Source: Balanoglossus misakiensis (lineage: Eukaryota > Animalia > Hemichordata). From it: DNA of 64,000 nucleotides. Location of the stretch: contig CM082589.2 in NCBI GenBank assembly GCA_040954595.2, positions 8,816,894-8,880,893 on the forward strand. The letters are read 5' to 3'. Below the pieces are notes generated by a model. The model ran no database searches. It saw only the letters and a program-made list of their open reading frames with translations, and was not told the origin of the DNA. Shown one piece after another: positions 21,001 through 62,300 of this stretch (within the stretch, counting starts at the first letter, position 1; every line of letters starts with the position of its first letter). The position numbers were made by a program, and so were the translations under genes.

Positions 21001-22874
21001 ATTGGCACAAACAGTCTTAGGAAGTAAGCTTTCAGCCTACCAATGAAGCTATTGTATTTTCCACTTTTTGTAAGTGAAGCCTGATTGTCGCCTGTCTTAG
21101 GTCACCACTTCATAAGCGGTCTTACCCGTCATTGGCACAAACAGTCTCAGGAAGTAAGCTTTCAGCCTACCAATGTAGCTATTGTATTTTCCACTTTTTG
21201 TAAGTGAAGCCTGACTGTCGCCTGTCTTAGGTCACCACTTCATAAGCGGTCTTACCCGTCATTGGCACAAACAGTCTCAGGAAGTAAGCTTTCAGCCTAC
21301 CAATGTAGCTATTGTATTTTCCACTTTTTGTAAGTGAAGCCTGACTGTCGCCTGTCTTAGGTCACCACTTCATAAGCGGTCTTACCCGTCATTGGCACAA
21401 ACAGTCTTAGGAAGTAAGCTTTCAGCCTACCAATGAAGCTATTGTATTTTCCACTTTTTGTAAGTGAAGCATGATTGTCGCCTGTCTTAGGTCACCACTT
21501 CATAAGCGGTCTTACCCGTCATTGGCACAAACAGTCTCAGGAAGTAAGCTTTCAGCCTACCAATGTAGCTATTGTATTTTCCACTTTTTGTAAGTGAAGC
21601 CTGACTGTCGCCTGTCTTAGGTCACCACTTCATAAGCGGTCTTACCCGTCATTGGCACAAACAGTCTCAGGAAGTAAGCTTTCAGCCTACCAATGTAGCT
21701 ATTGTATTTTCCACTTTTTGTAAGTGAAGCCTGACTGTCGCCTGTCTTAGGTCACCACTTCATAAGCGGTCTTACCCGTCATTGGCACAAACAGTCTCAG
21801 AAAGTAAGCTTTTAGCCTACCAATGTAGCTATTGTATTTTCCACTTTTTGTAAGTGAAGCCTGACTGTCGTCTGTCTTAGGTCACCACTTCATAAGCGGT
21901 CTTACCCGTCATTGGCACAAACAGTCTCAGGAAGTAAGCTTTCAGCCTACCAATGTAGCTATTGTATTTTCCACTTTTTGTAAGTGAAGCCTGACTGTCG
22001 CCTGTCTTAGGTCACCACTTCATAAGCGGTCTTACCCGTCATTGGCACAAACTGTCTCAGGAAGTAAGCTTTCAGCCTACCAATGTAGCTATTGTATTTT
22101 CCACTTTTTGTAAGTGAAGCCTGACTGTCGCCTGTCTTAGGTCACCACTTCATAAGCGGTCTTACCCGTCATTGGCACAAACAGTCTCAGGAAGTAAGCT
22201 TTCAGCCTACCAATGTAGCTATTGTATTTTCCACTTTTTGTAAGTGAAGCCTGACTGTCGCCTGTCTTAGGTCACCACTTCATAAGCGGTCTTACCCGTC
22301 ATTGGCACAAACAGTCTCAGGAAGTAAGCTTTCAGCATACCAATGTAGCTATTTTATTTTCCACTTTTTGTAAGTGAAGCCTGACTGTCGCCTGTCTTAG
22401 GTCACCACTTCATAAGCGGTCTTACCCGTCATTGGCACAAACAGTCTCAGGAAGTAAGCTTTCAGTCTACCAATGTAGCTATTGTATTTTCCACTTTTTG
22501 TAAGTGAAGCCTGACTGTCGCCTGTCTTAGGTCACCACTTCATAAGCGGTCTTACCCGTCATTGGCACAAACAGTCTCAGGAAGTAAGCTTTCAGCCTAC
22601 CAATGTAGCTATTGTATTTTTCACTTTTTGTAAGTGAAGCCTGACTGTCGCCTGTCTTAGGTCACCACTTCATAAGCGGTCTTACCCGTCATTGGCACAA
22701 ACAGTCTCAGGAAGTAAGCTTTAAGCCTACCATTGTAGCTATTGTATTTTCCACTTTTTGTAAGTGAAGCCTGACTGTCGCCTGTCTTAGGTCAACACTT
22801 CATAAGCGGTCTTACCCGTCATTGGCACAAACAGTCTCAGGAAGTAAGCTTTCAGCCTACCAATGTAGCTATTG
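1..22874. repeat. 130-bp tandem satellite array, block 1 (~176 monomers; runs off the window edge)
   Basis: Head-to-tail copies of GTATTTTCCACTTTTTGTAAGTGAAGCCTGACTGTCGCCTGTCTTAGGTCACCACTTCATAAGCGGTCTTACCCGTCATTGGCACAAACAGTCTCAGGAAGTAAGCTTTCAGCCTACCAATGTAGCTATT (130 bp), mostly 0-3 differences per copy and no spacers. Confidence 0.99.
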
Positions 22875-23516
22875 TGTAACGGCCTTGTTGATCCATTGAA
22901 TTTGTATACATGTATATCTGTATGTATGTTATACCTGTATCTTATAGTAATTAGTTATTCAATTATTCATATGACGTAATAGTACTTACCTTCAATTGGT
23001 TAATCTTAATTATATGCAAACCACCTGGAAGTTTCATTTGACCAATGAACACAAGCTAATCTGGCACTATGATGTAATTGCTGATATAAAAGGACATGGT
23101 GCATAAAATTGGTCAGTTCACCTCTGTAGCCAGACCGGCCACACACGTTGGAACTGACATGTATTTGTTCCATTTCAGGTTAGTTTCCTTGTACCTTACC
23201 TGTTGCTTGAAGCTTTGTATTTTGGTGCATTCTACCGACTCATTTCAGCACAAGTAATTGGTGTCTTTAACTTGCGTCAATTTTCCAATTGTATGTCTAT
23301 ATTTTTCACTTGCATGAATTTTGGTGTATTCTGTTGGAGGTGAACTCCCATACATGTGTGTAATTTAGGAGTTCACCTCTGTAGCCAGACCGGCCACACA
23401 CGTTGGAACTGACATATATTTGTTCCATTTCAGTTATTAAATGTAAGGCCTATGTCTTTGTTACCCGTAACCAGTTTGGTGTGAATATGTTGGAATGAAC
23501 GGCGACAACCGTGACA
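22875..23516 (+). repeat. 5' LTR (642 bp)
   Basis: TGTAACGG...CCGTGACA; matches 30294-30935 except at 23002/30421 and 23416/30835. Confidence 0.97.
23042..23118 (+). promoter_or_regulatory. LTR Pol II core promoter (CCAAT, TATA, Inr)
   Basis: CCAAT 23042-23046, TATAAAA 23085-23091, and Inr-like TCAGTT 23113-23118 with its A (23115) 30 bp after the TATA start. Confidence 0.7.
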
Positions 23517-23518
23517 AA

Positions 23519-23536: not shown

Positions 23537-24592
23537 TTGGCAATTCCTACGCAAGTTCTTGTTTCGGGACGGAGAGGATGATACTGACAAGTGCCATGTT
23601 TTAACTGGTCAGAAGTGTCTGGACAACGGACAACGCCCAACCAGGTGTGTCTTTCGCTGAGCTGGACGTCCTTGGGGAGCCAACCGGACTGCAGACAGAC
23701 GGGAGCCAGGTCCAAGCGTCAACGGCGAGGAAAATTCTCTGCAGAGTGCCAAGTGGTGAAGTCGCTGAACTGTTACCGGCCGGAACTGTTTAGTGTGAAG
23801 TGTTCATCGCGGTATACAAGGTATTGTGTGTCCAGAACTTGACAGTGTTATTCCGTGCGAACTATAGACAGTGCGCATAAATTCCGTCCGTGGCGCATAG
23901 TTTCCATCTGTGATAACTTCGGACTTGAACTTGTGGACTGGGTATTTTATTGCAAACGAACTTTCTGGTTATTCGCCGTAGAACCTGGTGTAACGTAATG
24001 TTTGTAAATTTTTCTTAGAAATTTCAATATTGTCTATATAATGCAATGTGGTCAAAGTAGTTTTGACTTTGATTTAATTGTTGAATTGGGCTCCATGTGG
24101 ATATAAACCCATGTTTTGTTGCCTTTAGCCTGCTTTAAAAAAAAAAAAAAAAATTATTTTCTTTCAATAGTATATTTTGGTTAAGTGCTGAAGTATAAAT
24201 TTTCTTTGTAAATTTCAGTTCATTATTTTCCAAACGACGTGAAAAAAAAAAAATTGTCAGCGCTTGTTGAAAAAAAACTATTAAGTTATAAGTTAAATAT
24301 TGTATATTGACTTGAGTTAGTTTATTATTGTATTAGTTATTTAGTTGTTTCATTATTATTGAGACTGTCCATGAATGGTCGTATTCATCCAAATCATACA
24401 TTAGTCTCTAGAGAACCTTTGGCAGTGTCTGTAAGCTATTCTATGCTTATTTCATTCCCTGTTAACGTATGTGCTATGCCAGTAGATACTGATATTATTG
24501 TTAAGATTTTCCAGTGAAATAGCTTGCATTGCATCGTATTTAACGACACGTCAGAGTCCTCCCAAATTGCCTTTCATTTTCTGGGGAAAAGA

Positions 24593-26017
24593 ATGGCTGT
24601 GTCCAAAATATCAATTCAAGAGCGAAGCATTTATGTGCAACACTTGCCTTTTGAATGTACAAAGAAACATTTTAGAGAATTTATCGAGTTACAGCTTGGT
24701 TTGGCCCAGGTTGATCAAATTTATATTTCTGATAAAGATTCCGCTTTTGTCATATTTGAGAATATAGAATCAGCCACAGCCGCTCTGCCAGTAATACATA
24801 AAAGCACTTTTGAAGAAAGCAAATTACGGGCAAGTCGTGTGACCACAGCCCGAGGGTTGGAACTGTGGCATTTAATTGAGGAAACCGAACAAAGTACTGG
24901 CCTAGATTACAATGAAACCAGTGATCCCAAGACATCCAAACCCAAAGCAGATGTACAGGAAATTATTAACATGTTGAGTTTACTGTCTGAAGCAGATAGG
25001 AAAGCGGTTGCACAGGCCATATCACCTGCTCCACTGAAACCAATCGTATCAACCCCTATGCCACAGCCGATTCCATTTCCAGCATTTCCAGTACCAACTT
25101 CAGTTGCAGATTCTTCACCATTTATTATGTCTTCACCTGCCCAAGCAGCTGCTGCACAGCCAGCCACAGCCACTACTGCTTTTCACTCGGTGGAATTCCC
25201 AAGAATAGTCGTCTTCTCTGGCAAAGGTGATGTCACTTATGAAATGTGGCGATATGAAGTTCGAGCACTACAGAGGGAGAATGTGTTTCCGGAGACCATA
25301 ATTATGCAGGCTGTTCGGAAATCCTTACGAGCGTCCGCTGCTGAAGTCCTACTACATATGGGAGAAGACATCACAGTGTCCCGATTGATGGCGAAGATGG
25401 ACATGGTCTTTGGGAAAGTATTGCCACCGGAAGCAGTTTTGGAAAAATTCTATACAGCACGACAAACGAAGACAGAAAAGGTAGCAGAATGGGCCTGTCG
25501 CATCGAAGGACTTTTGGATGAACTCAGATCAGGTCAGTCCATCTCTAGTAATTCAGAAGAAACCATGCTTCGAACCAAATTCTTTTCTGGCCTGTCAGAT
25601 GAGCACATTAAGAATGCAATCAGACACCGATATGATACGGGAGAAGATTATTCAGGATTGTTGCTAGCCGCAAGAAAGCTTGAAGTAAATAGGGAGACCA
25701 CTACCAGGGTTCACCAAGCAACTGTTGCTGACAAGACGATGATAACCAAATTGGAGGAACTTACCAAAGGTCTGAAGAACTTAGCTGAGAAGGTTGCTGA
25801 ACTAGAGAAGCGAACTTCAACATCATCAACTCCAGAGTCTACTTTTCGCCGACGTGTCAACAATGAAAATGGCCGGGATCGGCGTGGCAACGATGGAACT
25901 CGCCAACCCAAACAAGTTTTCCCAGGCAACTGCTTCAAGTGTGGTGAACATGGACACAAAAAGACAGACTGTCCTTTAAATGGGGAGCGACCAGGCATCC
26001 GGAGGGACATGCGCTAG
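24593..26017 (+). CDS. gag: Gag: N-terminal RRM-like domain, PNMA-like capsid, CCHC zinc knuckle
   Basis: First in-frame ATG at 24593 (474 aa). IYVQHL / SAFVIF RNP-like motifs; FSGKGDVTYEMWRYEV...EKFYTARQ capsid-like region; CFKCGEHGHKKTDC knuckle. Confidence 0.93.
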   Translation: MAVSKISIQERSIYVQHLPFECTKKHFREFIELQLGLAQVDQIYISDKDSAFVIFENIESATAALPVIHKSTFEESKLRASRVTTARGLELWHLIEETEQSTGLDYNETSDPKTSKPKADVQEIINMLSLLSEADRKAVAQAISPAPLKPIVSTPMPQPIPFPAFPVPTSVADSSPFIMSSPAQAAAAQPATATTAFHSVEFPRIVVFSGKGDVTYEMWRYEVRALQRENVFPETIIMQAVRKSLRASAAEVLLHMGEDITVSRLMAKMDMVFGKVLPPEAVLEKFYTARQTKTEKVAEWACRIEGLLDELRSGQSISSNSEETMLRTKFFSGLSDEHIKNAIRHRYDTGEDYSGLLLAARKLEVNRETTTRVHQATVADKTMITKLEELTKGLKNLAEKVAELEKRTSTSSTPESTFRRRVNNENGRDRRGNDGTRQPKQVFPGNCFKCGEHGHKKTDCPLNGERPGIRRDMR

Positions 26018-26020
26018 GTC
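25975..26020 (+). other. Programmed -1 ribosomal frameshift signal
   Basis: T TTA AAT heptamer in gag codon phase (25975-25981), followed by a CGACC/GGTCG + GCAT/ATGC stem-loop. Confidence 0.8.
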
Positions 26021-29000
26021 GGAACGGTAACAGTCCCTCTAATGTTATTGATTCTTTAATAGGCCACGCCAATGAAACTGAGATTGTGTTGGAAGGATCC
26101 TCGTGTATTGCGCTGATAGACACCGGGTCCATGGTATCTACTGTTGCTGACACTTTTAACAGAGAGAAGCTACAGAAACCAATTCATGACCTGAACAACT
26201 TGGTGAAGGTAGAAGGGGCTAGTGGTACAGAAGTTCCTTACCTTGGTTATATTGAAGTTGAAGTGAAATTCCCAGATAGCCATGGACAAGAGATGTCTAA
26301 AGATATATTATTGCTTGTTGTTGAAGACACGGAATATAATCAGATGGTTCCAGTTGTGATAGGCACAAATGTTCTCCAACATTTTGTGGATGAAGATACA
26401 CAGTACAGTACAGACCTATCCTCAGTATGGAGACTAGCATACCAAGCGACTATCCACCGGCAGAGGGCCGAAGGTAGGACATTTACAGTTACCACTACTA
26501 AACCCACAACCATTGGACCATACGAACGCACAGTCATCCATGGATTTTGCAGAGTGGACCTAAGAAATTGTCAATCAGTAGTTGTGGTGGAACCAGAAAA
26601 TGACAGACTTTTACCTGGTGGTTTACTTGTTACTCCAGCCGTGTTGAAGTTAGAGCCTCGTGGTAATTCGTGTCGAATCCCAGTAATGGTGACCAACTAT
26701 GGAGCACGTGCTGTCACAGTTCCCCCTAAAAGCACCCTATGTAACATGAACTTAGCATCTAATGTCTCACAGCCTTTAGATCCATATGGAGATGATATTG
26801 ATACAAACTCAGATGGGACCACCTCACCAAAAGTACCCGATTGGCTGATAAAAGACCTGGGATTACAAGAGGCAGATACAGAATTAACAGAAATCCAGAA
26901 AGACCAAGCCTTGGCTACCATTGGTAAATGGCAAACCGTGTTCTCTACAGGTGAGAGAGATTTGGGACACACAACATTGGTAACACATTCGATAAAGTTA
27001 ACGGATGAAACCCCCTTTAAAGATAAATACCGTCGAATCCCTATGGGTATGTACGAAGAATTGCAACAGTACCTGCAAGATATGCTACAGAGTGGTGTGA
27101 TTAGAGAATCAAACAGCCCGTGGTCCTCAAATGTAGTATGTGTCAGAAAACCTGATGGGAAGCTGAGGGTGTGTATTGATTATAGACGTCTCAACGCCAA
27201 AACCATTAAAGACGCTTACGCATTACCCCGGGTATTGGATACGCTTGATAACCTTAATAACGCCGAGTGGTTTTCATCGCTTGATCTACGGTCTGGATAT
27301 TACCAAGTAGAGATGGCGGAAGACGACAAAGCGAAGACGGCTTTCACGGTGGGAAACTTCGGCTTATTTGAATTCAACCGTATGTCTATGGGTCTGACCA
27401 ACGCACCTGCAACTTTCCAGCGTCTCATGGAGAAGTGTTTTGGAGAATTGGCGTTCAGAGAATGTTGTGTGTACTTAGATGACATCATAGTATTTTCGAA
27501 GACTTTTGAAGACCACCTCAATAGATTGGAGCGGGTATTCCAGCGGCTGGCATCACATGGACTAAAGTTGAAGGCAACGAAATGTGTTTTATTCCAGAAG
27601 AAGGTGAAATATCTTGGACACGTGGTATCAGCCGACGGAATTACAACGGACCCAGACAAGGTAGCAGCTCTGAAGGAATGGCCAATACCCACTACTGTAA
27701 CAGAACTGAGAAGATTTCTTGGATTTGCAGGGTATTACAGGAGATTTATCCAAAGCTACAGTAATATTGCCAAGCCACTTAACGACTTGCTGTGTGGACG
27801 TCAGTCAAGGAATAAGGCGGGAAAATTTGAAAAACTCCAGTGGGGACAACAGGAACAACAAGCTTTCGACACTCTGAGGAAGAGCCTAATGTCGTCACCA
27901 ATACTAGCCTTTGCTGACTACTCACTTCCATTTGAAATACATACTGATGCAAGTTCCACAGGTCTGGGAGCAGTGCTGTATCAACGCCAGAAAGGTATTC
28001 TCAGAGTAATTGCCTATGCAAGTAGAGGACTCACCAAGTCTGAAAGTAATTATCCAGCTCATAAATTAGAATTTTTGGCACTGAAATGGGCCGTCACCAA
28101 GAAGTTCAACGACTACCTGTATGGAAGCAAATTCACTGTGTTTACAGACAACAACCCTTTGACGTATGTGTTAACTTCTGCGAAACTGGATGCGGTGGGA
28201 CACAGATGGTTGTCAGACTTGTCATTGTACGACTTCTCTATTGTTTACCGGAGTGGTAAGAAGAATATAGAGGCTGACGCTTTGTCTAGGATTCCATGGA
28301 ATAGAGAGAATCCAGAGACGGAAACCAATCTGGGAGCCGATGTAGTCCAGGCGCTTTGTCGAGCAACAGAAGGTCCATACGTAACTTCATTCGGAATGGT
28401 AGCAGATGAGGACAGACCTGCAGTAGTTCAAGGTGGGGATGATGTGTTCTGGAAGACGGAGCAGTCCAAAGATTCAACAATACGGTATGTGACTGATCAG
28501 CTTGAAAAGGACCACAAACCACTTATGAGAGATCATACAGGAGATATCAGACTACTTATACGAGATTGGAAACGCCTTGTTCTGAAGAATGGAGTCCTAT
28601 ACAGGAAATGCTTCATCGATGATATACAATATTTGCAACTTGTCTTACCAGTACACCATAGAAAAGATGTCCTGGAGGAACTACATGATAAACTTGGACA
28701 CTTTGGCCAAGATAAAACCCTGGATCTGGTACGACGAAGATTCTACTGGCCTAGGATGTCGATGGATGTTCAAAAGAAAGTGGAACATTGTTTACCATGC
28801 ATTCGCAGGAAAAGTTCAACTTCCTTACCCAGAACTCCCTTGGTTAATATTCACACATCACAACCGATGGAAATGGTGTGCATCGACTTTCTCCATATAC
28901 CAACACCAGATCAAGGATATAGCAACATATTAGTGATGACGGACCATTTCACTCGATACGCTATAGCAGTACCTACAAAGAACCAGTCTGCCAAAACAAC

Positions 29001-30234
29001 TGCCAAAGCATTGTTTGAACATTTGATTCTGCATTATGGGTTCCCAGGACGATTACACAGTGACCAGGGGCGAAACTTTGAGTCGTCTACAATTCAGGAA
29101 CTTTGCCGAATAGCTAATATTAAGAAGTCCAGGACCACTCCATACCACCCCCAGGGAAATGGAATGTGTGAACGATTTAATAAGACGTTATTACAGATGC
29201 TGGGAACTATGAATGAAGACAACAAAACAAGATGGGCTTCACATGTCAATACGATGGTTCATGCCTATAATTCTACAAAGCATGAAAGCACCGGATATTC
29301 ACCTTTCTTTTTGATGTTTGGTCGTGAACCAAGACTGCCTATAGATGTATCTGGACATGCAGACCAGACCAACCTAGAATGTGGTGGAACAGTTTCAGAT
29401 TATGTGACGAAACTTGCCGAACGGTTGGATTACGCCTATAAAGTAGCAACGGAACGGTCTGTTAAGTCTGGTGAACGGCAGAAGAAGTCATATGATAGAA
29501 AAGTGAAGGTGGCCATAATACAACCTGGTGATACTGTGTTGGTGAAGAATACAGGACCTAAAGACAATTACAAATTGGCAGACCAATGGGAAAAGGATCC
29601 ATATACAGTGATTTCACAGCCCATAGAAGACATTCCAGTATACGTGGTACAAAAACAAGTTAAGGGTGGAAGGAAGCGGACACTACATAGAAATTTGCTA
29701 CTCCCAATACCAATAATTCCGGACGAACTGGATGACGATGTTAACACCAAGATGACGCAGCGTGATGTTAAGCAGAGTGTACCGGGTGTTATCAACGATG
29801 TTACCCAGGATGCAGTGGACGAAGAGGATGACGGCATTGGTAAATTGCAATTCGTGTCAACTATCAACTTGCCAACAGAACACAATGCTCTTAATCCTAC
29901 TGCTGCAGAATTCATCCCATCCAGAAGAGAAAGTTCCCTGATGGACAACCCCACAAGTATGGTTAATCCGGATGGACCTTCTCAAGTACTTACCTCAGAT
30001 TTCTCGAATCATATTTTGCAAAGTACGGATGGTTGGTCATCGAGCGATCCAGATGGTATCACTCCTGCTACAACCAACATCAGTCCTGACTCCAGTAGTA
30101 GTACTCAACCTGAACCACGCTATCCTACACGACAGAGACGACCTCCAGATAGATATAGTCCCGAACAATGGAATCTAAAACAGTTTGCTCATACGACTTT
30201 ATCTTCTATACCATTTATTAATTGCCACTATTAA
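25975..30234 (+). CDS. pol: Pol polyprotein (protease, RT, RNase H, integrase) in the -1 frame relative to gag
   Basis: LIDTGS protease; CIDYRRLN, LDLRSGYYQ and YLDD RT; TDAS...ELEFLA-type RNase H (HKLEFLA); H-H-C-C plus IDF/HSDQG/ERFN integrase. Frame is open from the slippery site at 25975. Confidence 0.97.
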   Translation, partial: FKWGATRHPEGHALGRNGNSPSNVIDSLIGHANETEIVLEGSSCIALIDTGSMVSTVADTFNREKLQKPIHDLNNLVKVEGASGTEVPYLGYIEVEVKFPDSHGQEMSKDILLLVVEDTEYNQMVPVVIGTNVLQHFVDEDTQYSTDLSSVWRLAYQATIHRQRAEGRTFTVTTTKPTTIGPYERTVIHGFCRVDLRNCQSVVVVEPENDRLLPGGLLVTPAVLKLEPRGNSCRIPVMVTNYGARAVTVPPKSTLCNMNLASNVSQPLDPYGDDIDTNSDGTTSPKVPDWLIKDLGLQEADTELTEIQKDQALATIGKWQTVFSTGERDLGHTTLVTHSIKLTDETPFKDKYRRIPMGMYEELQQYLQDMLQSGVIRESNSPWSSNVVCVRKPDGKLRVCIDYRRLNAKTIKDAYALPRVLDTLDNLNNAEWFSSLDLRSGYYQVEMAEDDKAKTAFTVGNFGLFEFNRMSMGLTNAPATFQRLMEKCFGELAFRECCVYLDDIIVFSKTFEDHLNRLERVFQRLASHGLKLKATKCVLFQKKVKYLGHVVSADGITTDPDKVAALKEWPIPTTVTELRRFLGFAGYYRRFIQSYSNIAKPLNDLLCGRQSRNKAGKFEKLQWGQQEQQAFDTLRKSLMSSPILAFADYSLPFEIHTDASSTGLGAVLYQRQKGILRVIAYASRGLTKSESNYPAHKLEFLALKWAVTKKFNDYLYGSKFTVFTDNNPLTYVLTSAKLDAVGHRWLSDLSLYDFSIVYRSGKKNIEADALSRIPWNRENPETETNLGADVVQALCRATEGPYVTSFGMVADEDRPAVVQGGDDVFWKTEQSKDSTIRYVTDQLEKDHKPLMRDHTGDIRLLIRDWKRLVLKNGVLYRKCFIDDIQYLQLVLPVHHRKDVLEELHDKLGHFGQDKTLDLVRRRFYWPRMSMDVQKKVEHCLPCIRRKSSTSLPRTPLVNIHTSQPMEMVCIDFLHIPTPDQGYSNILVMTDHFTRYAIAVPTKNQSAKTTAKALFEHLILHYGFPGRLHSDQGRNFESSTIQELCRIANIKKSRTTPYHPQGNGMCERFNKTLLQMLGTMNEDNKTRWASHVNTMVHAYNSTKHESTGYSPFFLMFGREPRLPIDVSGHADQTNLECGGTVSDYVTKLAERLDYAYKVATERSVKSGERQKKSYDRKVKVAIIQPGDTVLVKNTGPKDNYKLADQWEKDPYTVISQPIEDIPVYVVQKQVKGGRKRTLHRNLLLPIPIIPDELDDDVNTKMTQRDVKQSVPGVINDVTQDAVDEEDDGIGKLQFVSTINLPTEHNALNPTAAEFIPSRRESSLMDNPTSMVNPDGPSQVLTSDFSNHILQSTDGWSSSDPDGITPATTNISPDSSSSTQPEPRYPTRQRRPPDRYSPEQWNLKQFAHTTLSSIPFINCHY

Positions 30235-30293: not shown

Positions 30294-30935
30294 TGTAACG
30301 GCCTTGTTGATCCATTGAATTTGTATACATGTATATCTGTATGTATGTTATACCTGTATCTTATAGTAATTAGTTATTCAATTATTCATATGACGTAATA
30401 GTACTTACCTTCAATTGGTTGATCTTAATTATATGCAAACCACCTGGAAGTTTCATTTGACCAATGAACACAAGCTAATCTGGCACTATGATGTAATTGC
30501 TGATATAAAAGGACATGGTGCATAAAATTGGTCAGTTCACCTCTGTAGCCAGACCGGCCACACACGTTGGAACTGACATGTATTTGTTCCATTTCAGGTT
30601 AGTTTCCTTGTACCTTACCTGTTGCTTGAAGCTTTGTATTTTGGTGCATTCTACCGACTCATTTCAGCACAAGTAATTGGTGTCTTTAACTTGCGTCAAT
30701 TTTCCAATTGTATGTCTATATTTTTCACTTGCATGAATTTTGGTGTATTCTGTTGGAGGTGAACTCCCATACATGTGTGTAATTTAGGAGTTCACCTCTG
30801 TAGCCAGACCGGCCACACACGTTGGAACTGACATGTATTTGTTCCATTTCAGTTATTAAATGTAAGGCCTATGTCTTTGTTACCCGTAACCAGTTTGGTG
30901 TGAATATGTTGGAATGAACGGCGACAACCGTGACA
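30294..30935 (+). repeat. 3' LTR (642 bp)
   Basis: Direct repeat of 22875-23516, preceded by a short imperfect purine tract (AGGGGTGCG). Confidence 0.97.
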
Positions 30936-45545: not shown

Positions 45546-45692
45546 TGTTCTCAGGCCTGAAAGTCACTAAAAGTCATTCTGACTTACTACGAGTTGCGTG
45601 TTGTGAGACCCACTTGTTATTTTGACTATAGGGGGGCTAGTAATGATTCAATCAGAAAATTATTATAAATTGTATTTTATCTAGGTCTAAGA

Positions 45693-50378: not shown

Positions 50379-50626
50379 TGTTGTAATCTACAACATATTT
50401 GTAAAAAGAAATGAATTAATAAAGATATATTTGCTTGGCATATCCAGCTCGCCGGACAATCTAGTCCTGAATATGCCTATTTCCAACTAGGCCTATATTC
50501 AATTGAGATTAAACGAAAAATTCACAAAGCTTACAGTAAAATGGTCCATTGGCCTAAGCTTATATTATATTTAAAACGAAATAAGTTTGGGACAAAATAC
50601 AGTGAAATCCCAGTTGGTCTAGTTAT

Positions 50627-54100: not shown

Positions 54101-54191
54101 ACCACTTCATAAGCAGTCTTACCCGTCATTGGCACAAACAGTCTCAGGAAGTAAGCTTTCAGCCTACCAATGTAGCTATTGTATTTTCCAC
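51188..54191. repeat. 130-bp satellite array, block 3 (~23 monomers)
   Basis: Same monomer and orientation. Confidence 0.99.
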
Positions 54192-54293
54192 TTTTTTTTT
54201 TTTTTATCTTTTATTTAAACCTTCACCTCAATTACATGTTTATATAAATATAGAAAAGACAGTATTGTTGCACGGGCCTGAAGAGGTTAAAAA

Positions 54294-57200
54294 TTACAGT
54301 AAACTCGTAATTTTCTGAAAAGTTTCTAGCACAACAGCTTTCGCATCCAGTTGTTTTTCAATCTTATACCTTAACATAAACTCATTTTTGATTAAAACTT
54401 CAATCGGTGTGTTTTCATTAGTCACCCAGTACTTATGGATGCTCCATTTCCCAAGAAGAATTAAAAGCTGAAAAACATAACGTTTTTCTTTGGGTTTGAC
54501 ATTCTCGCCAACTTTTGTAAAAATAATGTCTGATGGTGTTATTTCTCTACACTCAAAACATTTAGAGATGACGTATTTCAGCTTTTTCCAGCATCTCACA
54601 GCTATTTGACAATAAATAAACCTGTGTTCCAGAGAGTCAATCTGGTGACAAAGAGGACAGAACATTGACTCATTTAACTTCCACAAGTATAAATACTTGT
54701 TACATGGTAATAAGCGTTGTAGAAGTTTCCACTGAAACTCTCTTAACTTGGCCTCTTTAGTCAACTTGTACACACTCAGCCAGATTTTGTAACAGTCGCT
54801 CTCTGGCTCTACAGGGGTGATATTTAACTTAGAAAACCATTTTGAGAGTTTATCGCTAGCCTGTACTGAGTGCCTCTGAATGAGATGAGTATACAACACC
54901 TTACAAGTTAATTTGTGGACCGGAGATTTAGAAACGCCAAGTGTGACATCATAGTCATCACTTTCAGAGTGAGCTGCATAAAAACACCTGAATTTGGAGG
55001 ACCAGACAAGGGTACGGTTCCCTGCACGGGAAGCATTGTGTTTCACCGCATACCAGGCATTCAGTACATTTACATAAAATTCTGGGAGTACAGATAAAAG
55101 AAAATCAGGAACCCTTTGCCAAATTGAGTGTTGATGCAATAAATTTGTGGTATTATCTAAAAGCAAATATGACCAGGGCAAGACAGCCCATGTCTCGTCT
55201 TTACACATTATTATTCTTTTAACCCAAAGAGCCATCATTGCTTCCACTTGGCATTTCACATTAATATGATTAACTCCTCCTAGCTTGTAGCCACTTTCAA
55301 GGATTTTGTTCGAAATTCTCCTTTTACGTTTTACAAAACTGTCAACGAGACGTTGTACTTTACAGAGAATATCATTGGGAATACCAATTACTGATGATAA
55401 ATACAAAATTTTTGAAACAGCAAGAGACTTGGTAATGAGAACACGGCCATAAATCGTGAGTTGCCGTCTTCCCCACATTTCCAAAACTTTACCTAATGAT
55501 TTTAACTTATCATCCCAGTTTAACTGCTTACACAGAGCATCATCATACCCAAAATATACTCCAAGAGTTTTTACAGGATTGTCAGTCCAACTTATATCAC
55601 CCACTTTATCGTTACATTTTCTTAAATTACCAAGTTTAAAAGCCTGCGTTTTCTTTTTATTTAACCTTAGCCCACTGCATCCTTGAAACTTCTCCATTAC
55701 TTTGAGAACAGATACAACAGAAGACAAATCTGCAACGAATACTGTTGTATCATCTGCAAGTAAAGATATCTTTGCTTCTTTGGCATGACCATTACCAGCA
55801 GGCAGACGAAACCCTTTGATAGTTTTATCATGTCTGATCTTACAAGCTAAAAACTCAATTGCTATTACAAATAAAAGTGCAGAGAGGGGACATCCCTGAC
55901 GGACACCTCTTTCTAACCTGAAGTAACTTGAAGACCAACCCTTGTATAAAATACAGCTCTGAATGTTCGTGTAGAAAGTTTTTACCCATTGACGAAAGGA
56001 ATGACCAAAATTCATACGTCGTAAAGTTTCATCTAGATAGTCCCAGTTAACGCTATCGAAGGCTTTTTCATAATCAAGGAACATGGCAACTCCCCCAACA
56101 TTGTGCTTCTTTGAGTAATGAAAGATGTCAGAGATAAGTCTAACATTTTCACCTATGAAACGCCCCTTCATATACCCGGTTTGATCTCTATGGATCAATG
56201 ACGGAAGAACGATCTGTAACCGATTAGCTAAGGCTTTAGTAGCAATTTTATAATCTGTATTTAGAAGAGACACTGGACGCCAGTTGTTTAAATCGTCCTC
56301 GGAGCCTTTCTTAAACAGGAGTGTAAGTAAACTTCGTCTCTGAGATAAAGATAGCGAACCACACCTGTAACTACTATTTAAAGATGACAATACATAATCG
56401 CAAATATCATTCCAGAAAAAACGATAAAATTCACCAGTTAACCCGTCGCATCCAGGAGATTTGTTGGGAGCAATCATACACAGTGCTTTAAAGCATTCTC
56501 TTTCTGTGAGCTCACCCTCACAAATGTCTGATTGATTCTGGGATAGCTGTGAAACAGCTGCATCTCCTAGAAAATCGTCAAGGCAACTATCTCTCGGCTT
56601 ATCTTTATACAGATTTTGATAAAAGTTCTTCTGTTCCTCAAGAATGTGCTCCGTATCAGTTACATAGGTACCCTGCGCTGTACGGAGAACATTCATCTCC
56701 TTTTTGGAGGCATTTGTCTTCTCTAAACCCAAAAAGAACTTTGTACTTTTTTCACCCTTTTCGACCCAGCGTGCCTTGGAGCGTATCTGCGCACCTTCGG
56801 CACGGAGGGTGAAAAGATCTTCCAAACGCTGTTTAATTAAACCATAAGCCTCAATGTTGGAATCAGACGGCTCATGGAGCATGTTTTGTTCAGCAGTACG
56901 CAAATGCTTCTCCAACTCCGGAATGAGGGTGTTAGAATTCTTCGTTACATTATGACAATACTCAATCGTGTACTCCTTCACATCTTTCTTTATCAAATCC
57001 CATCTAACATTGGCTTCTACATTCACATACTTAATTTTACACCGTGTCAGGAGATTACGGACACTTATAACGTAATCCTCCTTTTTAAGGAGGTGCTTGT
57101 TAAATTTCCAGGTGCCAGGACCCCTGTCAGACTTCCTATACATAATTTCTAAATAAACAGCCATGTGGTCTGTTTTCAATGCAGGTCTGATGTCAACTCT

Positions 57201-57863
57201 TTTTGTGTTTTTTAGAATGCTCTTAGATACAAAAATATAGTCAATTCTACTATAGGTCGGGCTGGGATGCAAGCGTCTCCATGTAAACTGTTGCAGTGAC
57301 GGGTTGCGTTCTCTCCAAATGTCAACCAGGGAGAACTGCTGCAGCATTTTACGTAAGGTCGGGACGGATTTATCCACAGATACCGCCCGAGATTTCTTAT
57401 CCAGCCTCTTATTAAGTGAACAATTAAAGTCGCCGGCTATTATAAGGCGTTCATACTTACAATTAACCTGAATGATGTTCATAAAGTTGACAAAAAAGCG
57501 ATTTCTCTGTACAGCATCATTCGGTGCATAGACACCACTGACTGAAAAACCCATGTTCTCGTACATACCGTTAACAATAACAATTCTACCAGAGTCATCT
57601 TTGTACACACTGTCAATATGAAAATTACAATGTTTAGCAATAAAGATTGCGACGCCTCTACTATTTTTGGCTCCTTCCGACATAATTATCCGACCTCCCC
57701 ATTCTTTTTCCCATTGAACAATATTTATATTTTCACCGTAAACTTCCTGTAAAATGGCAAAAGACGCCTTCTGGTGTTTAAGCCATTGCAAGATATCTCT
57801 ACGTTTAGAGTAATTACCTAGACCTCTTACATTTAAAGTTACAATATGTAATTTGTTACTCAT
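54294..57863 (-). CDS. ORF2: APE endonuclease + reverse transcriptase + C-terminal zinc-binding domain
   Basis: LNVRGL, LQE, GDFN, SRIDY, TDH (APE); KSPGCDG, WRPVSLLNTDYK, KAFDSV, GVRQGCPLS, LADD (RT); CPLC...H...C at the C-terminus; 1189 aa uninterrupted. Confidence 0.97.
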   Translation of the reverse strand: MSNKLHIVTLNVRGLGNYSKRRDILQWLKHQKASFAILQEVYGENINIVQWEKEWGGRIIMSEGAKNSRGVAIFIAKHCNFHIDSVYKDDSGRIVIVNGMYENMGFSVSGVYAPNDAVQRNRFFVNFMNIIQVNCKYERLIIAGDFNCSLNKRLDKKSRAVSVDKSVPTLRKMLQQFSLVDIWRERNPSLQQFTWRRLHPSPTYSRIDYIFVSKSILKNTKRVDIRPALKTDHMAVYLEIMYRKSDRGPGTWKFNKHLLKKEDYVISVRNLLTRCKIKYVNVEANVRWDLIKKDVKEYTIEYCHNVTKNSNTLIPELEKHLRTAEQNMLHEPSDSNIEAYGLIKQRLEDLFTLRAEGAQIRSKARWVEKGEKSTKFFLGLEKTNASKKEMNVLRTAQGTYVTDTEHILEEQKNFYQNLYKDKPRDSCLDDFLGDAAVSQLSQNQSDICEGELTERECFKALCMIAPNKSPGCDGLTGEFYRFFWNDICDYVLSSLNSSYRCGSLSLSQRRSLLTLLFKKGSEDDLNNWRPVSLLNTDYKIATKALANRLQIVLPSLIHRDQTGYMKGRFIGENVRLISDIFHYSKKHNVGGVAMFLDYEKAFDSVNWDYLDETLRRMNFGHSFRQWVKTFYTNIQSCILYKGWSSSYFRLERGVRQGCPLSALLFVIAIEFLACKIRHDKTIKGFRLPAGNGHAKEAKISLLADDTTVFVADLSSVVSVLKVMEKFQGCSGLRLNKKKTQAFKLGNLRKCNDKVGDISWTDNPVKTLGVYFGYDDALCKQLNWDDKLKSLGKVLEMWGRRQLTIYGRVLITKSLAVSKILYLSSVIGIPNDILCKVQRLVDSFVKRKRRISNKILESGYKLGGVNHINVKCQVEAMMALWVKRIIMCKDETWAVLPWSYLLLDNTTNLLHQHSIWQRVPDFLLSVLPEFYVNVLNAWYAVKHNASRAGNRTLVWSSKFRCFYAAHSESDDYDVTLGVSKSPVHKLTCKVLYTHLIQRHSVQASDKLSKWFSKLNITPVEPESDCYKIWLSVYKLTKEAKLREFQWKLLQRLLPCNKYLYLWKLNESMFCPLCHQIDSLEHRFIYCQIAVRCWKKLKYVISKCFECREITPSDIIFTKVGENVKPKEKRYVFQLLILLGKWSIHKYWVTNENTPIEVLIKNEFMLRYKIEKQLDAKAVVLETFQKITSLL

Positions 57864-59146
57864 TTCTTTAGTTTCCTCTTCCTCTTGCGTCTCTTTCTGT
57901 TGTCCGTGGTCGTCCCGGAAGCCGGCGTTAAAATCACGGGTGATTCCGGTGAAAGATCGGACATTTCCTCTTTTGTTGTGTCACAGTCCACGTACTGTTC
58001 AGACTCGCTCTCGCTGATATTCGCTGATGTGTCAGCGACGGCAGCGACGGAATCGTCTTGATCACAATCTTTCGGTTTCTGTATTCTTGGATCGCGCCTT
58101 TTCTCAGGAAAGTACGATGATATCGACCGCTGCGAGGCTCGTTGTCTCGATGAGGATGATGGGTCGTTGCACACTGTGTCATGACTAGTACTGCCTATGC
58201 TCGATCCACACTTCGTAGTAGCCTCCCTCGTCTGTTGGCTCTCACAATGAGCTGACGAAGCCGGTTCTGCAGCAGGTGTAGATAAAGGCGTTGGAATGCC
58301 TGCGTCACTTGTAGGTGTGGTGCTTTGTTGTGGCGTCGATGTGATAATTACTGCCTCCGTCGCAGGAGTAATCAACGCGCATACACCACTTTCCACCTCC
58401 TGTTCGGCCTGCTTTTCACACTTGGCATTAACACATTCCTTTGCAAGGTGCCCATTGCCGAAACAAAGTCTGCATTTCAAAGGATTTGTGCACTGGTAGC
58501 TAAAATGTCCAAGTTGCAAGCACTTGTTACACTTTGTTTCTTGCTCAGAGTTTCTGTTCTGCAAGCTACTGAAAAGCCTTGCAGAAAACGGTCCGACTTT
58601 AATAAATTTCGGTAGATCTTTGGATGGTTTTTCAACGAAAACCATGCGGTCCCCATTGCAAATATTGGTGAGTTTGCCGTTCACCCGCCATCTTTGCCGC
58701 AGAAGCCTAGATTTAGTTTTCAGGCCTATCGCAGACAAAGAGCTCCCGATGACGCTGTCATCTAACGACAACGGCAAATCTTTCACAATGATCTTGACAC
58801 CAACTTCTTGCAACTCACGCCTGAATGGATTCTTATCCCAAAGTTCTATTGCTTTTCCACGTAAAGACAAACCATGTTGCTTCAGTATTAGCTTATCGGC
58901 ATTGTCCCTTGGGTAAATTCTCCAGAGACCACGAATCCGCTGCAAGCCGTCAATGTTCTCAATTGGCACTACTTCAGCAATACTAGCAAGGATCTCCTCA
59001 CCTTTTAACCATTGTTTGGTCTCTGGTCTAACAACATCTGATTGTTTTAGAAATAGAACGGACTTGTGGTCCTCAGCAGTTTCTGAGTCTGCATACGGCA
59101 TGGTGACTTGTGCGTAGCTTCGGACTCCCGCCGCGCCGGCCGCCAT
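57860..59146 (-). CDS. ORF1: Tx1-type nucleic-acid-binding protein with two CCHC zinc knuckles
   Basis: SYAQV N-terminus; CNKCLQLGHFSYQC and CRLCFGNGHLAKEC; disordered S/T-rich tail; basic C-terminus RKRRKRKRKLKK. Confidence 0.93.
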   Translation of the reverse strand: MAAGAAGVRSYAQVTMPYADSETAEDHKSVLFLKQSDVVRPETKQWLKGEEILASIAEVVPIENIDGLQRIRGLWRIYPRDNADKLILKQHGLSLRGKAIELWDKNPFRRELQEVGVKIIVKDLPLSLDDSVIGSSLSAIGLKTKSRLLRQRWRVNGKLTNICNGDRMVFVEKPSKDLPKFIKVGPFSARLFSSLQNRNSEQETKCNKCLQLGHFSYQCTNPLKCRLCFGNGHLAKECVNAKCEKQAEQEVESGVCALITPATEAVIITSTPQQSTTPTSDAGIPTPLSTPAAEPASSAHCESQQTREATTKCGSSIGSTSHDTVCNDPSSSSRQRASQRSISSYFPEKRRDPRIQKPKDCDQDDSVAAVADTSANISESESEQYVDCDTTKEEMSDLSPESPVILTPASGTTTDNRKRRKRKRKLKK

Positions 59147-59372
59147 ACTGGGTGGGGTTCCTTTGTTGTAACGACAAAACTGAAAACTCCTTCAAACGTC
59201 CAAAAATGACCAGATAGTAACACAATAAAGGTTACTTCTGCTACATAGGTAGTTAAACTGCACTCCGAACACTTCGCAGTAAACAAGTTTAACAGTACGA
59301 TGACAAAATTTGTCAAAAAACTCACGGAGCGTTCAAACCCTGTTTCCGTGGATGACAGATGCAGAGCGCCCT

Positions 59373-62300
59373 TTGTATTTTCCACTTTTTGTAAGTGAAG
59401 CCTGACTGTCTCCTGTCTTAGGTCACCACTTCATAAGCGGTCTTACCCGTCATTGGCACAAACAGTCTCAGGAAGTAAGCTTTCAGCCTACCAATGTAGC
59501 TATTGTATTTTCCACTTTTTGTAAGTGAAGCCTGACTGTCGCCTGTCTTAGGTCACCACTTCATAAGCGGTCTTACTTGTCATTGGCACAAACAGTCTCA
59601 GGAAGTAAGCTTTCAGCCTACCAATGTAGCTATTGTATTTTCCACTTTTTGTAAGTGAAGCCTGACTGTCGCCTGTCTTAGGTCACCACTTCATAAGCGG
59701 TCTTACCCGTCATTGGCACAAACAGTCTCAGGAAGTAAGCTTTCAGCCTACCAATGTAGCTATTGAATTTTCCACTTTTTGTAAGTGAAGCCTGACTGTC
59801 GCCTGTCTTAGGTCACCACTTCATAAGCGGTCTTACCCGTCATTGGCACAAACAGTCTCAGGAAGTAAGCTTTCAGCCTACCAATGTAGCTATTGTATTT
59901 TCCACTTTTTGTAAGTGAAGCCTGACTGTCGCCTGTCTTAGGTCACCACTTCATAAGCGGTCTTACCCGTCATTGGCACAAACAGTCTCAGGAAGTAAGC
60001 TTTCAGCCTACCAATGTAGCTATTGTATTTTCCACTTTTTGTAAGTGAAGCCTGACTGTCGCCTGTCTTAGGTCACCACTTCATAAGCGGTCTTACCCGT
60101 CATTGGCACAAACAGTCTCAGGAAGTAAGCTTTCAGCCTACCAATGTAGCTATTATATTTTCCAGTTTTTGTAAGTGAAGCCTGACTGTCGCCTGTCTAA
60201 GGTCACCACTTCATAAGTGGTCTTACCCGTTATTGGCACAAACAGTCTCAGGAAGTAAGCTTTCAGCCTACCAATGTTGCTATTGTATTTTCCAGTTTTT
60301 GTAAGTGAAGCCTGACTGTCGCCTGTCTAAGGTCACCACTTCATAAGTGGTCTTACCCGTTATTGGCACAAACAGTCTCAGGAAGTAAGCTTTCAGCCTA
60401 CCAATGTAGCTATTGTATTTTCCACTTTTTGTAAGTGAAGCCTGACTGTCGCCTGTCTTAGGTCACCACTTCATAAGCGGTCTTACCTGTCATTGGCACA
60501 AACAGTCTCAGGAAGTAAGCTTTCAGCCTACCAATGTAGCTATTGTATTTTCCACTTTTTGTAAGTGAAGCCTGACTGTCGCCTGTCTTAGGTCACCACT
60601 TCATAAGCGGTCTTACCCGTCATTGGCACAAACAGTCTCAGGAAGTAAGCTTTCAGCCTACCAATGTAGCTATTGAATTTTCCACTTTTTGTAAGTGAAG
60701 CCTGACTGTCGCCTGTCTTAGGTCACCACTTCATAAGCGGTCTTACCCGTCATTGGCACAAACAGTCTCAGGAAGTAAGCTTTCAGCCTACCAATGTAGC
60801 TATTATATTTTCCACTTTTTGTAAGTGAAGCCTGACTGTCGCCTGTCTTAGGTCACCACTTCATAAGTGGTCTTACCCGTTATTGGCACAAACAGTCTCA
60901 GGAAGTAAGCTTTCAGCCTACCAATGTAGCTATTGTATTTTCCACTTTTTGTAAGTGAAGCCTGACTGTCGCCTGTCTTAGGTCACCACTTCATAAGCGG
61001 TCTTACCCGTCATTGGCACAAACAGTCTCAGGAAGTAAGCTTTCAGCCTACCAATGTAGCTATTGAATTTTCCACTTTATGTAAGTGAAGCCTGACTGTC
61101 GCCTGTCTTAGGTCACCACTTCATAAGCGGTCTTACCCGTCATTGGCACAAACAGTCTCAGGAAGTAAGCTTTCAGCCTACCAATGTAGCTATTATATTT
61201 TCCACTTTTTGTAAGTGAAGCCTGACTGTCGCCTGTCTTAGGTCACCACTTCATAAGCAGTCTTACCCGTCATTGGCACAAACAGTCTCAGGAAGTAAGC
61301 TTTCAGCCTACCAATGTAGCTATTGTATTTTCCACTTTTTGTAAGTGAAGCCTGACTGTCGCCTGTCTTAGGTCACCACTTCATAAGCGGTCTTACCCGT
61401 CATTGGCACAAACAGTCTCAGGAAGTAAGCTTTCAGCCTACCAATGTAGCTATTGTATTTTCCACTTTTTGTAAGTGAAGCCTGACTGTCGCCTGTCTTA
61501 GGTCACCACTTCATAAGCGGTCTTACCCGTCATTGGCACAAACAGTCTCAGGAAGTAAGCTTTCAGCCTACCAATGTAGCTATTGTATTTTCCAATTTTT
61601 GTATGTGAAGCCTGACTGTCGCCTGTCTTAGGTCACCACTTCATAAGCGGTCTTACCCGTCATTGGCACAAACAGTCTCAGGAAGTAAGCTTTCAGCCTA
61701 CCAATGTAGCTATTGTATTTTATAATTTTTGTATGTGAAGCCTGACTGTCGCCTGTCTTAGGTCACCACTTCATAAGCGGTCTTACCCGTCATTGGCACA
61801 AACAGTCTCAGGAAGTAAGCTTTCAGCCTACCAATGAAGCTATTGTATTTTCCACTTTTTGTAAGTGAAGCCTGACTGTCGCCTGTCTTAGGTCACCACT
61901 TCATAAGCGGTCTTACCTGTCATTGGCACAAACAGTCTCAGGAAGTAAGCTTTCAGCCTACCAATGTAGCTATTGTATTTTCCACTTTTTGTAAGTGAAG
62001 CCTGACTGTCGTCTGTCTTAGGTCACCACTTCATAAGCGGTCTTACCCGTCATTGGCACAAACAGTCTCAGGAAGTAAGCTTTCAGCCTACCAATGTAGC
62101 TATGGTATTTTCCACTTTTTGTAAGTGAAGCCTGACTGTCGCCTGTCTTAGGTCACCACTTCATAAGCGGTCTTACCCGTCATTGGCACAAACAGTCTCA
62201 GGACGTAAGCTTTCAGCCTACCAATGTAGCTATTGTATTTTCCACTTTTTATAAGTGAAGCCTGACTGTCGCCTGTCTTAGGTCACCACTTCATAAGCGG

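What the first reader, a model, noticed from the sequence alone, without database searches (positions are those of the whole stretch)
22871..59385. Three unrelated transposon classes inserted at the same base of the 130-bp satellite monomer
Seen: in the monomer segment gctATTGtattttccac, the Gypsy TSD is ATTG (22871), the ISL2EU TSD is the AT of that same ATTG (44993), and the Tx1 TSD begins one base later at TTG (54179). Known: these elements use three different enzymes (retroviral-type integrase, Harbinger-type DDE transposase, APE/TPRT). Under uniform insertion, two more hits within 1 bp of the first have probability about (3/130)^2, roughly 5e-4. Sequence preferences weaken this: the monomer has only 5 AT dinucleotides and its long T-runs lie next to this site. 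Inference: the monomer has one exposed landing site, such as the linker between phased (possibly CENP-A) nucleosomes or a bent or unwound junction, or several TE families have convergently adapted to this satellite.
Basis: partly seen in the sequence, partly recalled or inferred. Interest (0 to 1): 0.85.

Follow-up and report, generated by a model that had tools for sequence, protein, structure and literature searches.

The report
Shared transposon landing patch in satellite
Three unrelated jumping genes do sit at nearly the same base of this 130-base repeat, and other copies of the repeat show the same favoured spot, but most insertions land elsewhere and the spot is likely just the repeat's most A/T-rich, easily opened patch that several ordinary targeting rules happen to point to.

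Summary
The three junctions are as described. I ran the proposed test on 89% of the satellite's assembled copies (14 arrays, 1.01 Mb): 40 inserts collapse to 25 events, plus one at an array end. Of the 23 events outside the window, 5 start at monomer bases 30-32 (0.53 expected if uniform, P 2e-4) and 18 do not; a second cluster lies at 92-96. So a hot spot is real, a single landing site is not. Family target rules measured outside the satellite raise the expectation to 1.5-1.9 (P 0.01-0.03) and fully explain the wider zone 21-40 (8 seen, 7.6-9.7 expected); without one pogo-type family no excess remains (2 of 20 vs 1.4). The LINE's match is partly geometric: its priming nick would lie about 18 bp away in the T-run, and its family's duplication length fixes the far end. 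All three families live mostly outside the satellite, which argues against convergent adaptation. Chromatin phasing is untested; centromeric identity is doubtful. The scan met the same pattern in other genomes.

The parts
94..22874 (+). 130-bp satellite, array segment 1 (175 copies; the window starts just right of a 100-N assembly gap)
22871..22874 (+). Gypsy TSD ATTG, left copy (monomer 31-34)
22875..23516 (+). Gypsy 5' LTR, 642 bp, TG..CA
24518..26017 (+). Gypsy gag frame (RRM-like, PNMA, zf-CCHC), stop to stop
25948..30234 (+). Gypsy pol frame (RT, RNase H, integrase; no chromodomain hit)
30294..30935 (+). Gypsy 3' LTR, 2 mismatches to the 5' LTR
30936..30939 (+). Gypsy TSD ATTG, right copy
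30936..44994 (+). 130-bp satellite, array segment 2 (108 copies)
44993..44994 (+). ISL2EU TSD AT, left copy (monomer 31-32)
44995..45545 (+). ISL2EU left TIR, about 550 bp, begins ACACG
45669..47324 (+). ISL2EU transposase frame (THAP, HTH_Tnp_4, DDE_Tnp_4)
48209..50387 (-). ISL2EU second gene: YqaJ exonuclease frame 48209-49252 and SAP frame 49785-50387 (likely exons of one gene)
50627..51187 (-). ISL2EU right TIR
51188..51189 (+). ISL2EU TSD AT, right copy
51188..54196 (+). 130-bp satellite, array segment 3 (23 copies)
54179..54196 (+). LINE TSD, 18 bp, left copy (monomer 32-49); its T5 run 54192-54196 is the inferred priming-nick site
   Evidence: TPRT geometry recalled
54197..54205 (-). 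LINE poly(A) tail (T9 on the + strand beyond the TSD)
54294..57980 (-). L1/Tx1-type ORF2 frame (APE endonuclease, RT, zf-RVT)
57860..59191 (-). LINE ORF1 frame (zinc knuckle)
59373..59390 (+). LINE TSD, right copy
59373..64000 (+). 130-bp satellite, array segment 4 (36 copies in the window)

Best explanation
Three unrelated transposons sit within one base of each other on the satellite monomer, other arrays repeat this preference at about one insertion in five, and the likely cause is the DNA itself: monomer bases 26-38 are the repeat's cluster of TA/AT steps and its weakest duplex, where several families' ordinary target rules would converge. Shown: TA-cutting families are confined to 9-10 TA steps, 3-4 of them at 26-35; ISL2EU to 5 AT steps; a TA-cutting family with CACTA-starting ends has an A-N-N-TA-N-N-T preference outside the satellite that makes TA26 its best site. 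Inferred: the LINE nicks in the T5 run (its only ACTTT site) and its family's fixed 13-14-base non-T duplication places the far end at 31-32; a second LINE with an (ATTG)n tail primes on the ATT at 31 by microhomology; bendable, easily opened DNA adds a shared bias that short motifs miss. Because thousands of monomers are near-identical, weak preferences become exact-base pile-ups. The Gypsy and BEL hits at 31 and the three pogo-type hits at 30 are only partly accounted for.
For: Zone 21-40: 8 of 23 new events seen, 7.6-9.7 expected under motif-aware nulls, P 0.50-0.87. At 30-32, without the pogo-type MITE: 2 of 20 seen, 1.41-1.46 expected, P 0.42-0.44. Look-elsewhere test on the 23 new events under motif nulls: best 3-bp window P 0.17-0.35. 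From 24 outside half-sites, TA26 gets probability 0.27-0.52 for the CACTA-starting family, which hit TA26 twice in opposite orientations and TA93 once. LINE: 5 distinct outside sites with a clear TSD have a non-T part of 14, 14, 14, 13, 14 bases, the window 13; AC is the commonest dinucleotide before the T-run, 6 of 17. The 8 hot-zone events sit at stacking-energy ranks 4-15 of 130; the weakest centres are 34-36. The MITE chose A/T-richer base-34 variants where they are rare: T in C10 (7% of monomers) and A in the second C7 array (5%). Literature: ISL2EU target A|AT|T (PMC4482050, passages); Tc1/mariner prefer bendable palindromic AT DNA (PMC8934666, passages); structure plus nick motif makes LINE hot spots (PMC1635306, abstract).
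Against: At the pre-named 30-32 window the excess survives every motif-aware null: 5 seen, 1.5-1.9 expected, P 0.011-0.028; with all 26 events the best 3-bp window has P 0.004-0.008 (this includes the three discovery events). The Gypsy's own profile from 13 outside sites gives base 31 only 0.013-0.025, rank 11-18 of 130. The BEL family shows no A/T preference at 7 outside sites yet starts at 31. The MITE profile (only 7 half-sites) favours TA33, TA35 and TA26 over TA30 (0.02-0.15), yet three independent copies chose TA30. The weakest duplex centre is 34-36, not 30-31. The 92-96 cluster (5 of 23; 1.0-1.5 expected, post hoc P 0.002-0.014) is not in weak duplex.
Confidence: 0.65

Rival explanations
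1. Phased chromatin adds accessibility. A 130-bp unit is shorter than a canonical 147-bp nucleosome core (recalled), so a simple register would be two nucleosomes per three monomers (195-bp repeat), which would put linkers at two phases 65 bp apart, near 30 and near 94, where the two clusters lie; a CENP-A particle per monomer is the alternative form.
For: Two clusters, 26-32 (8 of 23) and 92-96 (5 of 23), lie 62-66 bp apart; second-harmonic Rayleigh R 0.44, P 0.0095 against uniform. The residual excess at 30-32 (P 0.01-0.03) rests on a pogo-type element, and Tc1/mariner elements prefer linkers (PMC8934666, passages).
Against: The second harmonic is not significant under motif-aware nulls (P 0.13-0.21); no 10-bp periodicity (13th harmonic P 0.97). 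A 48-bp linker would give a broad zone, not a 3-bp spike, and the broad zone is already explained. No clear 3-monomer higher-order repeat. LTR integrases are reported to favour nucleosomal rather than linker DNA, so one linker would not serve all classes. Arrays were located on 11 of at least 22 large contigs, two contigs carry two arrays.
Confidence: 0.2
2. Retention bias: insertions land more evenly, but those at some phases survive array homogenisation or are copied with the array.
For: Copies are amplified with the array: 40 inserts collapse to 25 events; the MITE at TA30 stands 5 times in C1 and twice in C10; three inserts are shared by the C6, C15 and C24 arrays.
Against: Counts were made after collapsing copies. 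The window's three elements are young (LTRs 2 mismatches in 642; LINE tail 99-100% identical to 9 outside copies), leaving little time for sorting. No reason is seen for phase-specific survival.
Confidence: 0.06
3. The pogo-type transposase is tethered to the satellite through a look-alike of its end-binding motif, and this explains three hits at TA30.
For: 3 of about 8 independent copies of this small family lie at TA30 of a satellite that is about 0.3% of the assembly; the related 2.3-kb copy encodes HTH_Tnp_Tc5 and DDE_1 domains.
Against: The best match of the element's subterminal repeat to the monomer is no better than shuffles: 720 of 2000 shuffles reach it, 378 of 2000 for the best two. 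It would not explain the window's three elements.
Confidence: 0.04
4. Several families have convergently adapted to target this satellite.
For: Young families are over-represented in the arrays: 3 of about 36 copies of the CACTA-starting family, against about 0.3% of the assembly.
Against: Gypsy: 1 of the 15 elements inspected lies in the satellite, and no other of 72 LTR starts falls inside a mapped array. ISL2EU: 2 of 6 ends (one element). LINE: 1 of 24 matches. Over-representation fits neutral retention in gene-poor DNA (inference).
Confidence: 0.03
5. Pure coincidence under uniform insertion.
For: The window was chosen after the fact.
Against: Replication outside the window: 5 of 23 at 30-32, P 2e-4; look-elsewhere P 0.016 for 3-bp and 0.0014 for 7-bp windows.
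Confidence: 0.02

Closest known systems
SZ-22 LTR insertions along rice CEN155 (bioRxiv 10.1101/2024.07.28.605524; passages)
   Same: Insertions occur over the whole monomer with one favoured zone (positions 100-120 of 155).
   Different: One centrophilic family, 2,258 events, in a proven CENH3 satellite; here about 20 unrelated families, 26 events, a 3-7-bp peak, centromeric status unknown.
HIV-1 integration hot spots in Alu repeats (bioRxiv 10.1101/2022.10.26.513837; abstract only)
   Same: A favoured short sequence inside a high-copy repeat turns a weak preference into an exact-position hot spot.
   Different: One integrase and a dispersed repeat; here integrases, DDE transposases and TPRT enzymes share one patch of a tandem repeat.
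Structure-plus-motif hot spots of non-LTR and Tc1/mariner elements (PMC1635306 and PMC3167599, abstracts; PMC8934666, passages)
   Same: Weak stacking, bendable A/T-rich DNA plus a short enzyme motif define preferred sites across element classes.
   Different: Those studies treat dispersed sites; here the same rules are read out on one monomer.
Centrophilic retrotransposons, e.g. Tal1 guided by CENH3 chromatin (PMC11735389, passages; PMC10984392, passages)
   Same: Young LTR elements inside satellite arrays.
   Different: Those families are concentrated in centromeres; the three families here are mostly outside the satellite and the Gypsy pol gave no chromodomain hit. The passages read gave no monomer-phase data.
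ISL2EU group of the PHIS superfamily (PMC4482050; passages)
   Same: AT TSD; THAP-HTH-DDE transposase plus YqaJ gene.
   Different: TIRs here begin ACACG, not the usual GG, and are about 550 bp against the 6-259 bp reported; the target is T|AT|T, a one-sided match to A|AT|T.

Membership tests
Single-site TE landing pad (28S rDNA R-element type; recalled) | Most independent insertions fall at one site of the unit | tested here: not met
   5 of 23 new events at 30-32, 8 of 23 at 26-32, the rest from base 5 to 117
Single-site TE landing pad (28S rDNA R-element type; recalled) | The families are restricted to the repeat | tested here: not met
   Gypsy 1 of 15 elements, ISL2EU 2 of 6 ends, LINE 1 of 24 matches in satellite
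Sequence- and shape-driven hot spot in a repeat | Non-uniform phase that replicates in independent events | tested here: met
   P 2e-4 at 30-32; look-elsewhere P 0.016 and 0.0014
Sequence- and shape-driven hot spot in a repeat | Clustering accounted for by each family's outside target rule | tested here: inconclusive
   Zone 21-40 accounted for (P 0.50-0.87); spike at 30-32 leaves P 0.011-0.028, lost when one family is removed; profiles rest on 7-24 sites
Sequence- and shape-driven hot spot in a repeat | Peak persists on naked DNA | not testable with these tools
   needs in-vitro integration
Centromeric (CENP-A) satellite with phased nucleosomes | One major array on every chromosome | tested here: inconclusive
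   14 arrays on 11 of at least 22 large contigs plus one small contig; two contigs carry two arrays; 686 of 6252 pattern hits not located; three arrays hold N gaps
Centromeric (CENP-A) satellite with phased nucleosomes | CENP-A enrichment and a phased linker | not testable with these tools
   only assembled contigs of DNA runs were listed
ISL2EU (PHIS) | AT TSD | tested here: met
   all 6 ends preceded by AT
ISL2EU (PHIS) | THAP-HTH-DDE transposase plus YqaJ exonuclease gene | tested here: met
ISL2EU (PHIS) | TIR usually starts with GG, 6-259 bp | tested here: not met
   starts ACACG, about 550 bp; the paper says 'usually'
Ty3/Gypsy | TG..CA LTRs, 4-6-bp TSD, RT-RNase H-integrase order | tested here: met
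L1/Tx1 group | Two ORFs, APE + RT + CCHC, poly(A) tail, 10-20-bp TSD | tested here: met
   best solved-structure match human L1 ORF2p, E 5e-94
Tx1 clade as distinct from L1 | Placement in an RT tree with reference elements | not tested

The most novel reading that the evidence does not exclude
Transposon scars footprint the chromatin of this satellite: nucleosomes are phased two per three monomers, leaving exposed DNA at two phases half a monomer apart (about 30 and 94), and five enzyme classes read the same register. Insertion phase would then give a chromatin map of a satellite from an assembly alone.
Probability: 0.15. Interest if true: 0.65.

Novelty: new member of a known kind. Interest (0 to 1): 0.27.

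Why it matters
It is a clean, multi-family example of how a homogeneous repeat turns weak, ordinary target preferences into exact-base coincidences, and a caution for reading such coincidences as chromatin or adaptation. A small residual remains (three pogo-type hits on a non-optimal TA, two LTR hits at 31, a second cluster half a monomer away); if chromatin data confirmed it, TE junctions would serve as a natural accessibility probe for satellites that cannot be mapped uniquely.

Tried and rejected
Transposase tethering by a TIR look-alike in the monomer: no better than shuffles. Ten-base helical periodicity of the 23 new events: none (R 0.04, P 0.97). Higher-order repeat of three monomers: no clear dip at lag 3 or 6 in 12 arrays. 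Excision footprints at TA steps as extra data: none evident among 45 distinct short insertions in 7,618 units; 20 of 48 distinct deletions of 3 bp or more start at 21-47, about twice the even share, not tested further. Array left ends fall at ten different phases (4, 27, 41, 50, 67, 70, 78, 91, 118, 129), no cluster. Reading the ISL2EU ends as a no-TSD insertion between A and T gives the same sequence and cannot be told apart; AT was kept by the literature. Public runs: 8 listed, all assembled contigs, no RNA holder listed, no chromatin library named. Laying contigs on one monomer recovered almost none of the known junctions, so it is no census; it showed one further element with a TTA duplication at 77-79 and one loose end near 72, neither in the DNA held; they were not added to the counts. 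Rows dropped before counting: 2 N gaps and 1 array-end duplication of 43 gaps; one one-sided BEL junction at base 21; 3 of 21 Gypsy flank pairs (2 missing an end, 1 mismatched TSD) and 4 duplicates; 3 of 10 BEL pairs missing an end; three 8-base LINE TSD matches that may be chance and one full-length copy without a TSD. Literature searches for multi-class insertion at one satellite base listed no such paper; the library lacks most subscription journals, and the rice preprint's supplementary figure 11 could not be seen.
Full report
Observation. The window is G000:C17:8816894-8880893. It holds four segments of a 130-bp satellite with 97% matches between neighbours, interrupted by three intact-looking elements whose proteins Pfam assigns to Gypsy (RT, RNase H, integrase), ISL2EU (THAP-HTH-DDE plus YqaJ) and an APE-RT LINE (nearest solved protein human L1 ORF2p). 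With base 0 at window 22840, the TSD starts are 31, 31 and 32.

A correction of geometry. The LINE lies on the minus strand with its poly(A) tail against the T5 run (monomer 45-49). By the standard TPRT model (recalled) the target-choosing nick is at that run, about 18 bp from the ATTG; base 32 is the second-strand cut. Five distinct outside copies with a clear TSD have a non-T part of 13-14 bases, the window copy 13. The T5 run is the monomer's only ACTTT; AC precedes the T-run in 6 of 17 outside sites. A nick there lands the far end at 31-32 automatically; my model gives this 0.13-0.44, depending on whether two or three target T's are required.

Are the families satellite-specific? No. Of 15 Gypsy elements inspected only the window's is in satellite, of 6 ISL2EU ends only the window's two, of 24 LINE tail matches only the window's.

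Genome-wide census. An exact 23-mer of the monomer occurs 6,252 times. Rare-variant patterns located the arrays; the fetched DNA holds 5,566 of the 6,252 hits, 1.01 Mb in 14 arrays on 11 large contigs and one small one. There are 43 interruptions; 2 are N gaps and 1 is a duplication of an array end. The other 40 collapse by identity, orientation and junction into 25 events; a MITE at the end of the second C7 array makes 26. Pfam shows Gypsy, Gmr1-like, BEL, several LINEs, hAT, EnSpm and pogo types among them. TSD starts of the 23 events other than the window's three: 5, 26, 26, 26, 30, 30, 30, 31, 31, 56, 67, 79, 80, 81, 92, 92, 93, 94, 96, 106, 111, 116, 117 (a few are uncertain by 1-3 bases where there is microhomology or no TSD). 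The three nearest insertions left of the window, in the same array, start at about 111, 80 and 56.

The hot spot replicates. Five of 23 start at 30-32 (0.53 expected if uniform, P 2e-4) and 8 of 23 at 26-32 (1.24 expected). The five are a BEL element with a 5-bp TSD at 31, a LINE with an (ATTG)n tail whose junction begins at 31, and three pogo-type MITEs at TA30. The MITEs are independent: the C1 and C10 copies are in opposite orientation and 97% identical, the C1 copy is closer to outside copies (98.7-99.7%), and the C7 copy is a different internal deletion.

How much do family rules explain? I built target profiles from outside copies: 13 Gypsy sites, 7 BEL sites, 24 half-sites of a TA-cutting family with CACTA-starting ends, 7 MITE half-sites, 17 LINE contexts. 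Under four motif-aware nulls the zone 21-40 is fully explained (8 seen, 7.6-9.7 expected), 26-32 partly (2.9-5.5 expected, P 0.004-0.12), and 30-32 keeps an excess (1.5-1.9 expected, P 0.011-0.028). Removing the MITE family removes it (2 of 20 against 1.4, P 0.42-0.44); counting it once gives P 0.17. New LTR events alone: 1 of 5, P 0.11. Without naming the window in advance, the best 3-bp cluster among the 23 has P 0.17-0.35 under motif nulls; with all 26 events P 0.004-0.008, or about 0.06 with the MITE counted once. The discovery triple has probability 0.001-0.003 under family rules, 2-6 times the uniform figure, so motifs alone do not make it expected; at the hot-spot rate seen elsewhere it is 0.01-0.05. 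Against the motif account: the Gypsy profile ranks base 31 only 11th-18th, BEL has no A/T bias, and the MITE profile prefers TA33, TA35 and TA26.

Physical basis. By nearest-neighbour stacking energies (values recalled, SantaLucia set), the weakest 11-bp duplex centres are 34-36, then 31-33; the eight hot-zone events rank 4-15 of 130 while the other fifteen rank 33-125. Base 34 is polymorphic: A in 3,971, G in 2,798, T in 97 of 6,874 full-length monomers; A adds another TA step and weakens the patch. The MITE sits in a T34 monomer in C10 (7% of that array) and an A34 monomer in the second C7 array (5%), as expected if local sequence is read. Published work ties hot spots to weak stacking and bendability plus a short motif (PMC1635306 and PMC3167599, abstracts; PMC8934666, passages) and gives ISL2EU an A|AT|T target (PMC4482050, passages), which four of the five AT steps match on one side.

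Chromatin. Not testable here: only assembled contigs are listed. Indirect signs are mixed. A second cluster at 92-96 lies half a monomer from the first, as a 195-bp nucleosome repeat would give; the second harmonic is significant against uniform (P 0.0095) but not against motif nulls (P 0.13-0.21), there is no 10-bp periodicity and no clear trimer repeat. Retroviral-type integrases are reported to prefer nucleosomal DNA and Tc1/mariner linkers, so one linker would not suit all classes. Centromeric identity is doubtful: arrays were found on 11 of at least 22 large contigs, two contigs carry two, and 12 of the 13 arrays with a held right end continue into the same flanking sequence, 89-99% identical over 0.5-5.3 kb where aligned to C17, ten of them from monomer base 17-18. 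The arrays look like copies of one duplicated block. Eleven percent of hits are unlocated and three arrays contain gaps, so this is not final.

Comparison. Rice SZ-22 inserts over the whole CEN155 monomer with one favoured zone (preprint passages); HIV-1 has exact hot spots in Alu (abstract). This case works like those, with more enzyme classes and far fewer events. It is not a single-site landing pad and not a centrophilic family. Earlier scan notes on other genomes reached like readings; none in this genome covers this satellite. The note that the animal is acorn-worm-like comes from those notes and was not tested.

Verdict. Real, replicated, modest hot spot; most likely written in the DNA of the monomer; a small residual leaves room for phased chromatin. 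Interest 0.27.

Noticed in passing
G000 arrays on C1, C6, C7 (two), C10, C13, C15 (two), C17, C18, C24, C25; e.g. L072 from C17:8891526: 12 of 13 arrays with a held right end run into the same flanking sequence, ten from monomer base 17-18, 89-99% identical; C10 and C17 stay collinear for tens of kb, and C15 (9.58 Mb) and C17 share left flank too. The satellite looks like an internal part of a large block duplicated between chromosomes; no long ORF was seen in the first 20 kb of the C17 flank.
   Followed up: partly
C6:0.60-0.72 Mb, C15:11.11-11.23 Mb, C24:0.83-0.97 Mb: Three arrays on different contigs share three inserts at 99.8-100% identity and their left flanks: recent exchange or duplication between chromosomes, or an assembly effect.
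   Followed up: partly
L222-L242, L311: A small pogo-type MITE family has 3 of about 8 independent copies at TA30 of this satellite; one further copy is repeated near the ends of C10, C12 and C25; a 2.3-kb relative with HTH_Tnp_Tc5 and DDE_1 lies 170 kb from the C1 array.
   Followed up: yes
window 44995-51187: The ISL2EU element has TIRs of about 550 bp beginning ACACG, longer than the 6-259 bp reported and without the usual GG; only 6 ends were found in the genome.
   Followed up: partly
monomer base 34 (window 22874 phase): Arrays fall into G-rich (C17, C10, C15 9.6 Mb, C64, second C7) and A-rich (C1, C9, C13, C25, first C7) groups, with C6, C15 11.1 Mb, C18 and C24 mixed.
   Followed up: partly
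C17:8816794-8816893, just left of the window: A 100-N assembly gap inside the array; its true length is unknown.
   Followed up: no
monomer bases 4, 50, 92 and 41, 85: Short words recur about 43-46 bp apart (TAAG; CCACTT), hinting that the 130-mer arose from a triple of a roughly 43-bp unit; seen by eye in the majority sequence.
   Followed up: no
C9:3115247-3124863 (L190-L191): A 9.6-kb DNA element with GAGTC-starting inverted ends and a 4-bp duplication carries a frame with F-box and LRR hits.
   Followed up: no
window 23115-23178 and 23370-23433: The Gypsy LTR holds an internal 64-bp direct repeat 255 bp apart; one copy in C9 has a 387-bp LTR, 255 bp shorter.
   Followed up: no
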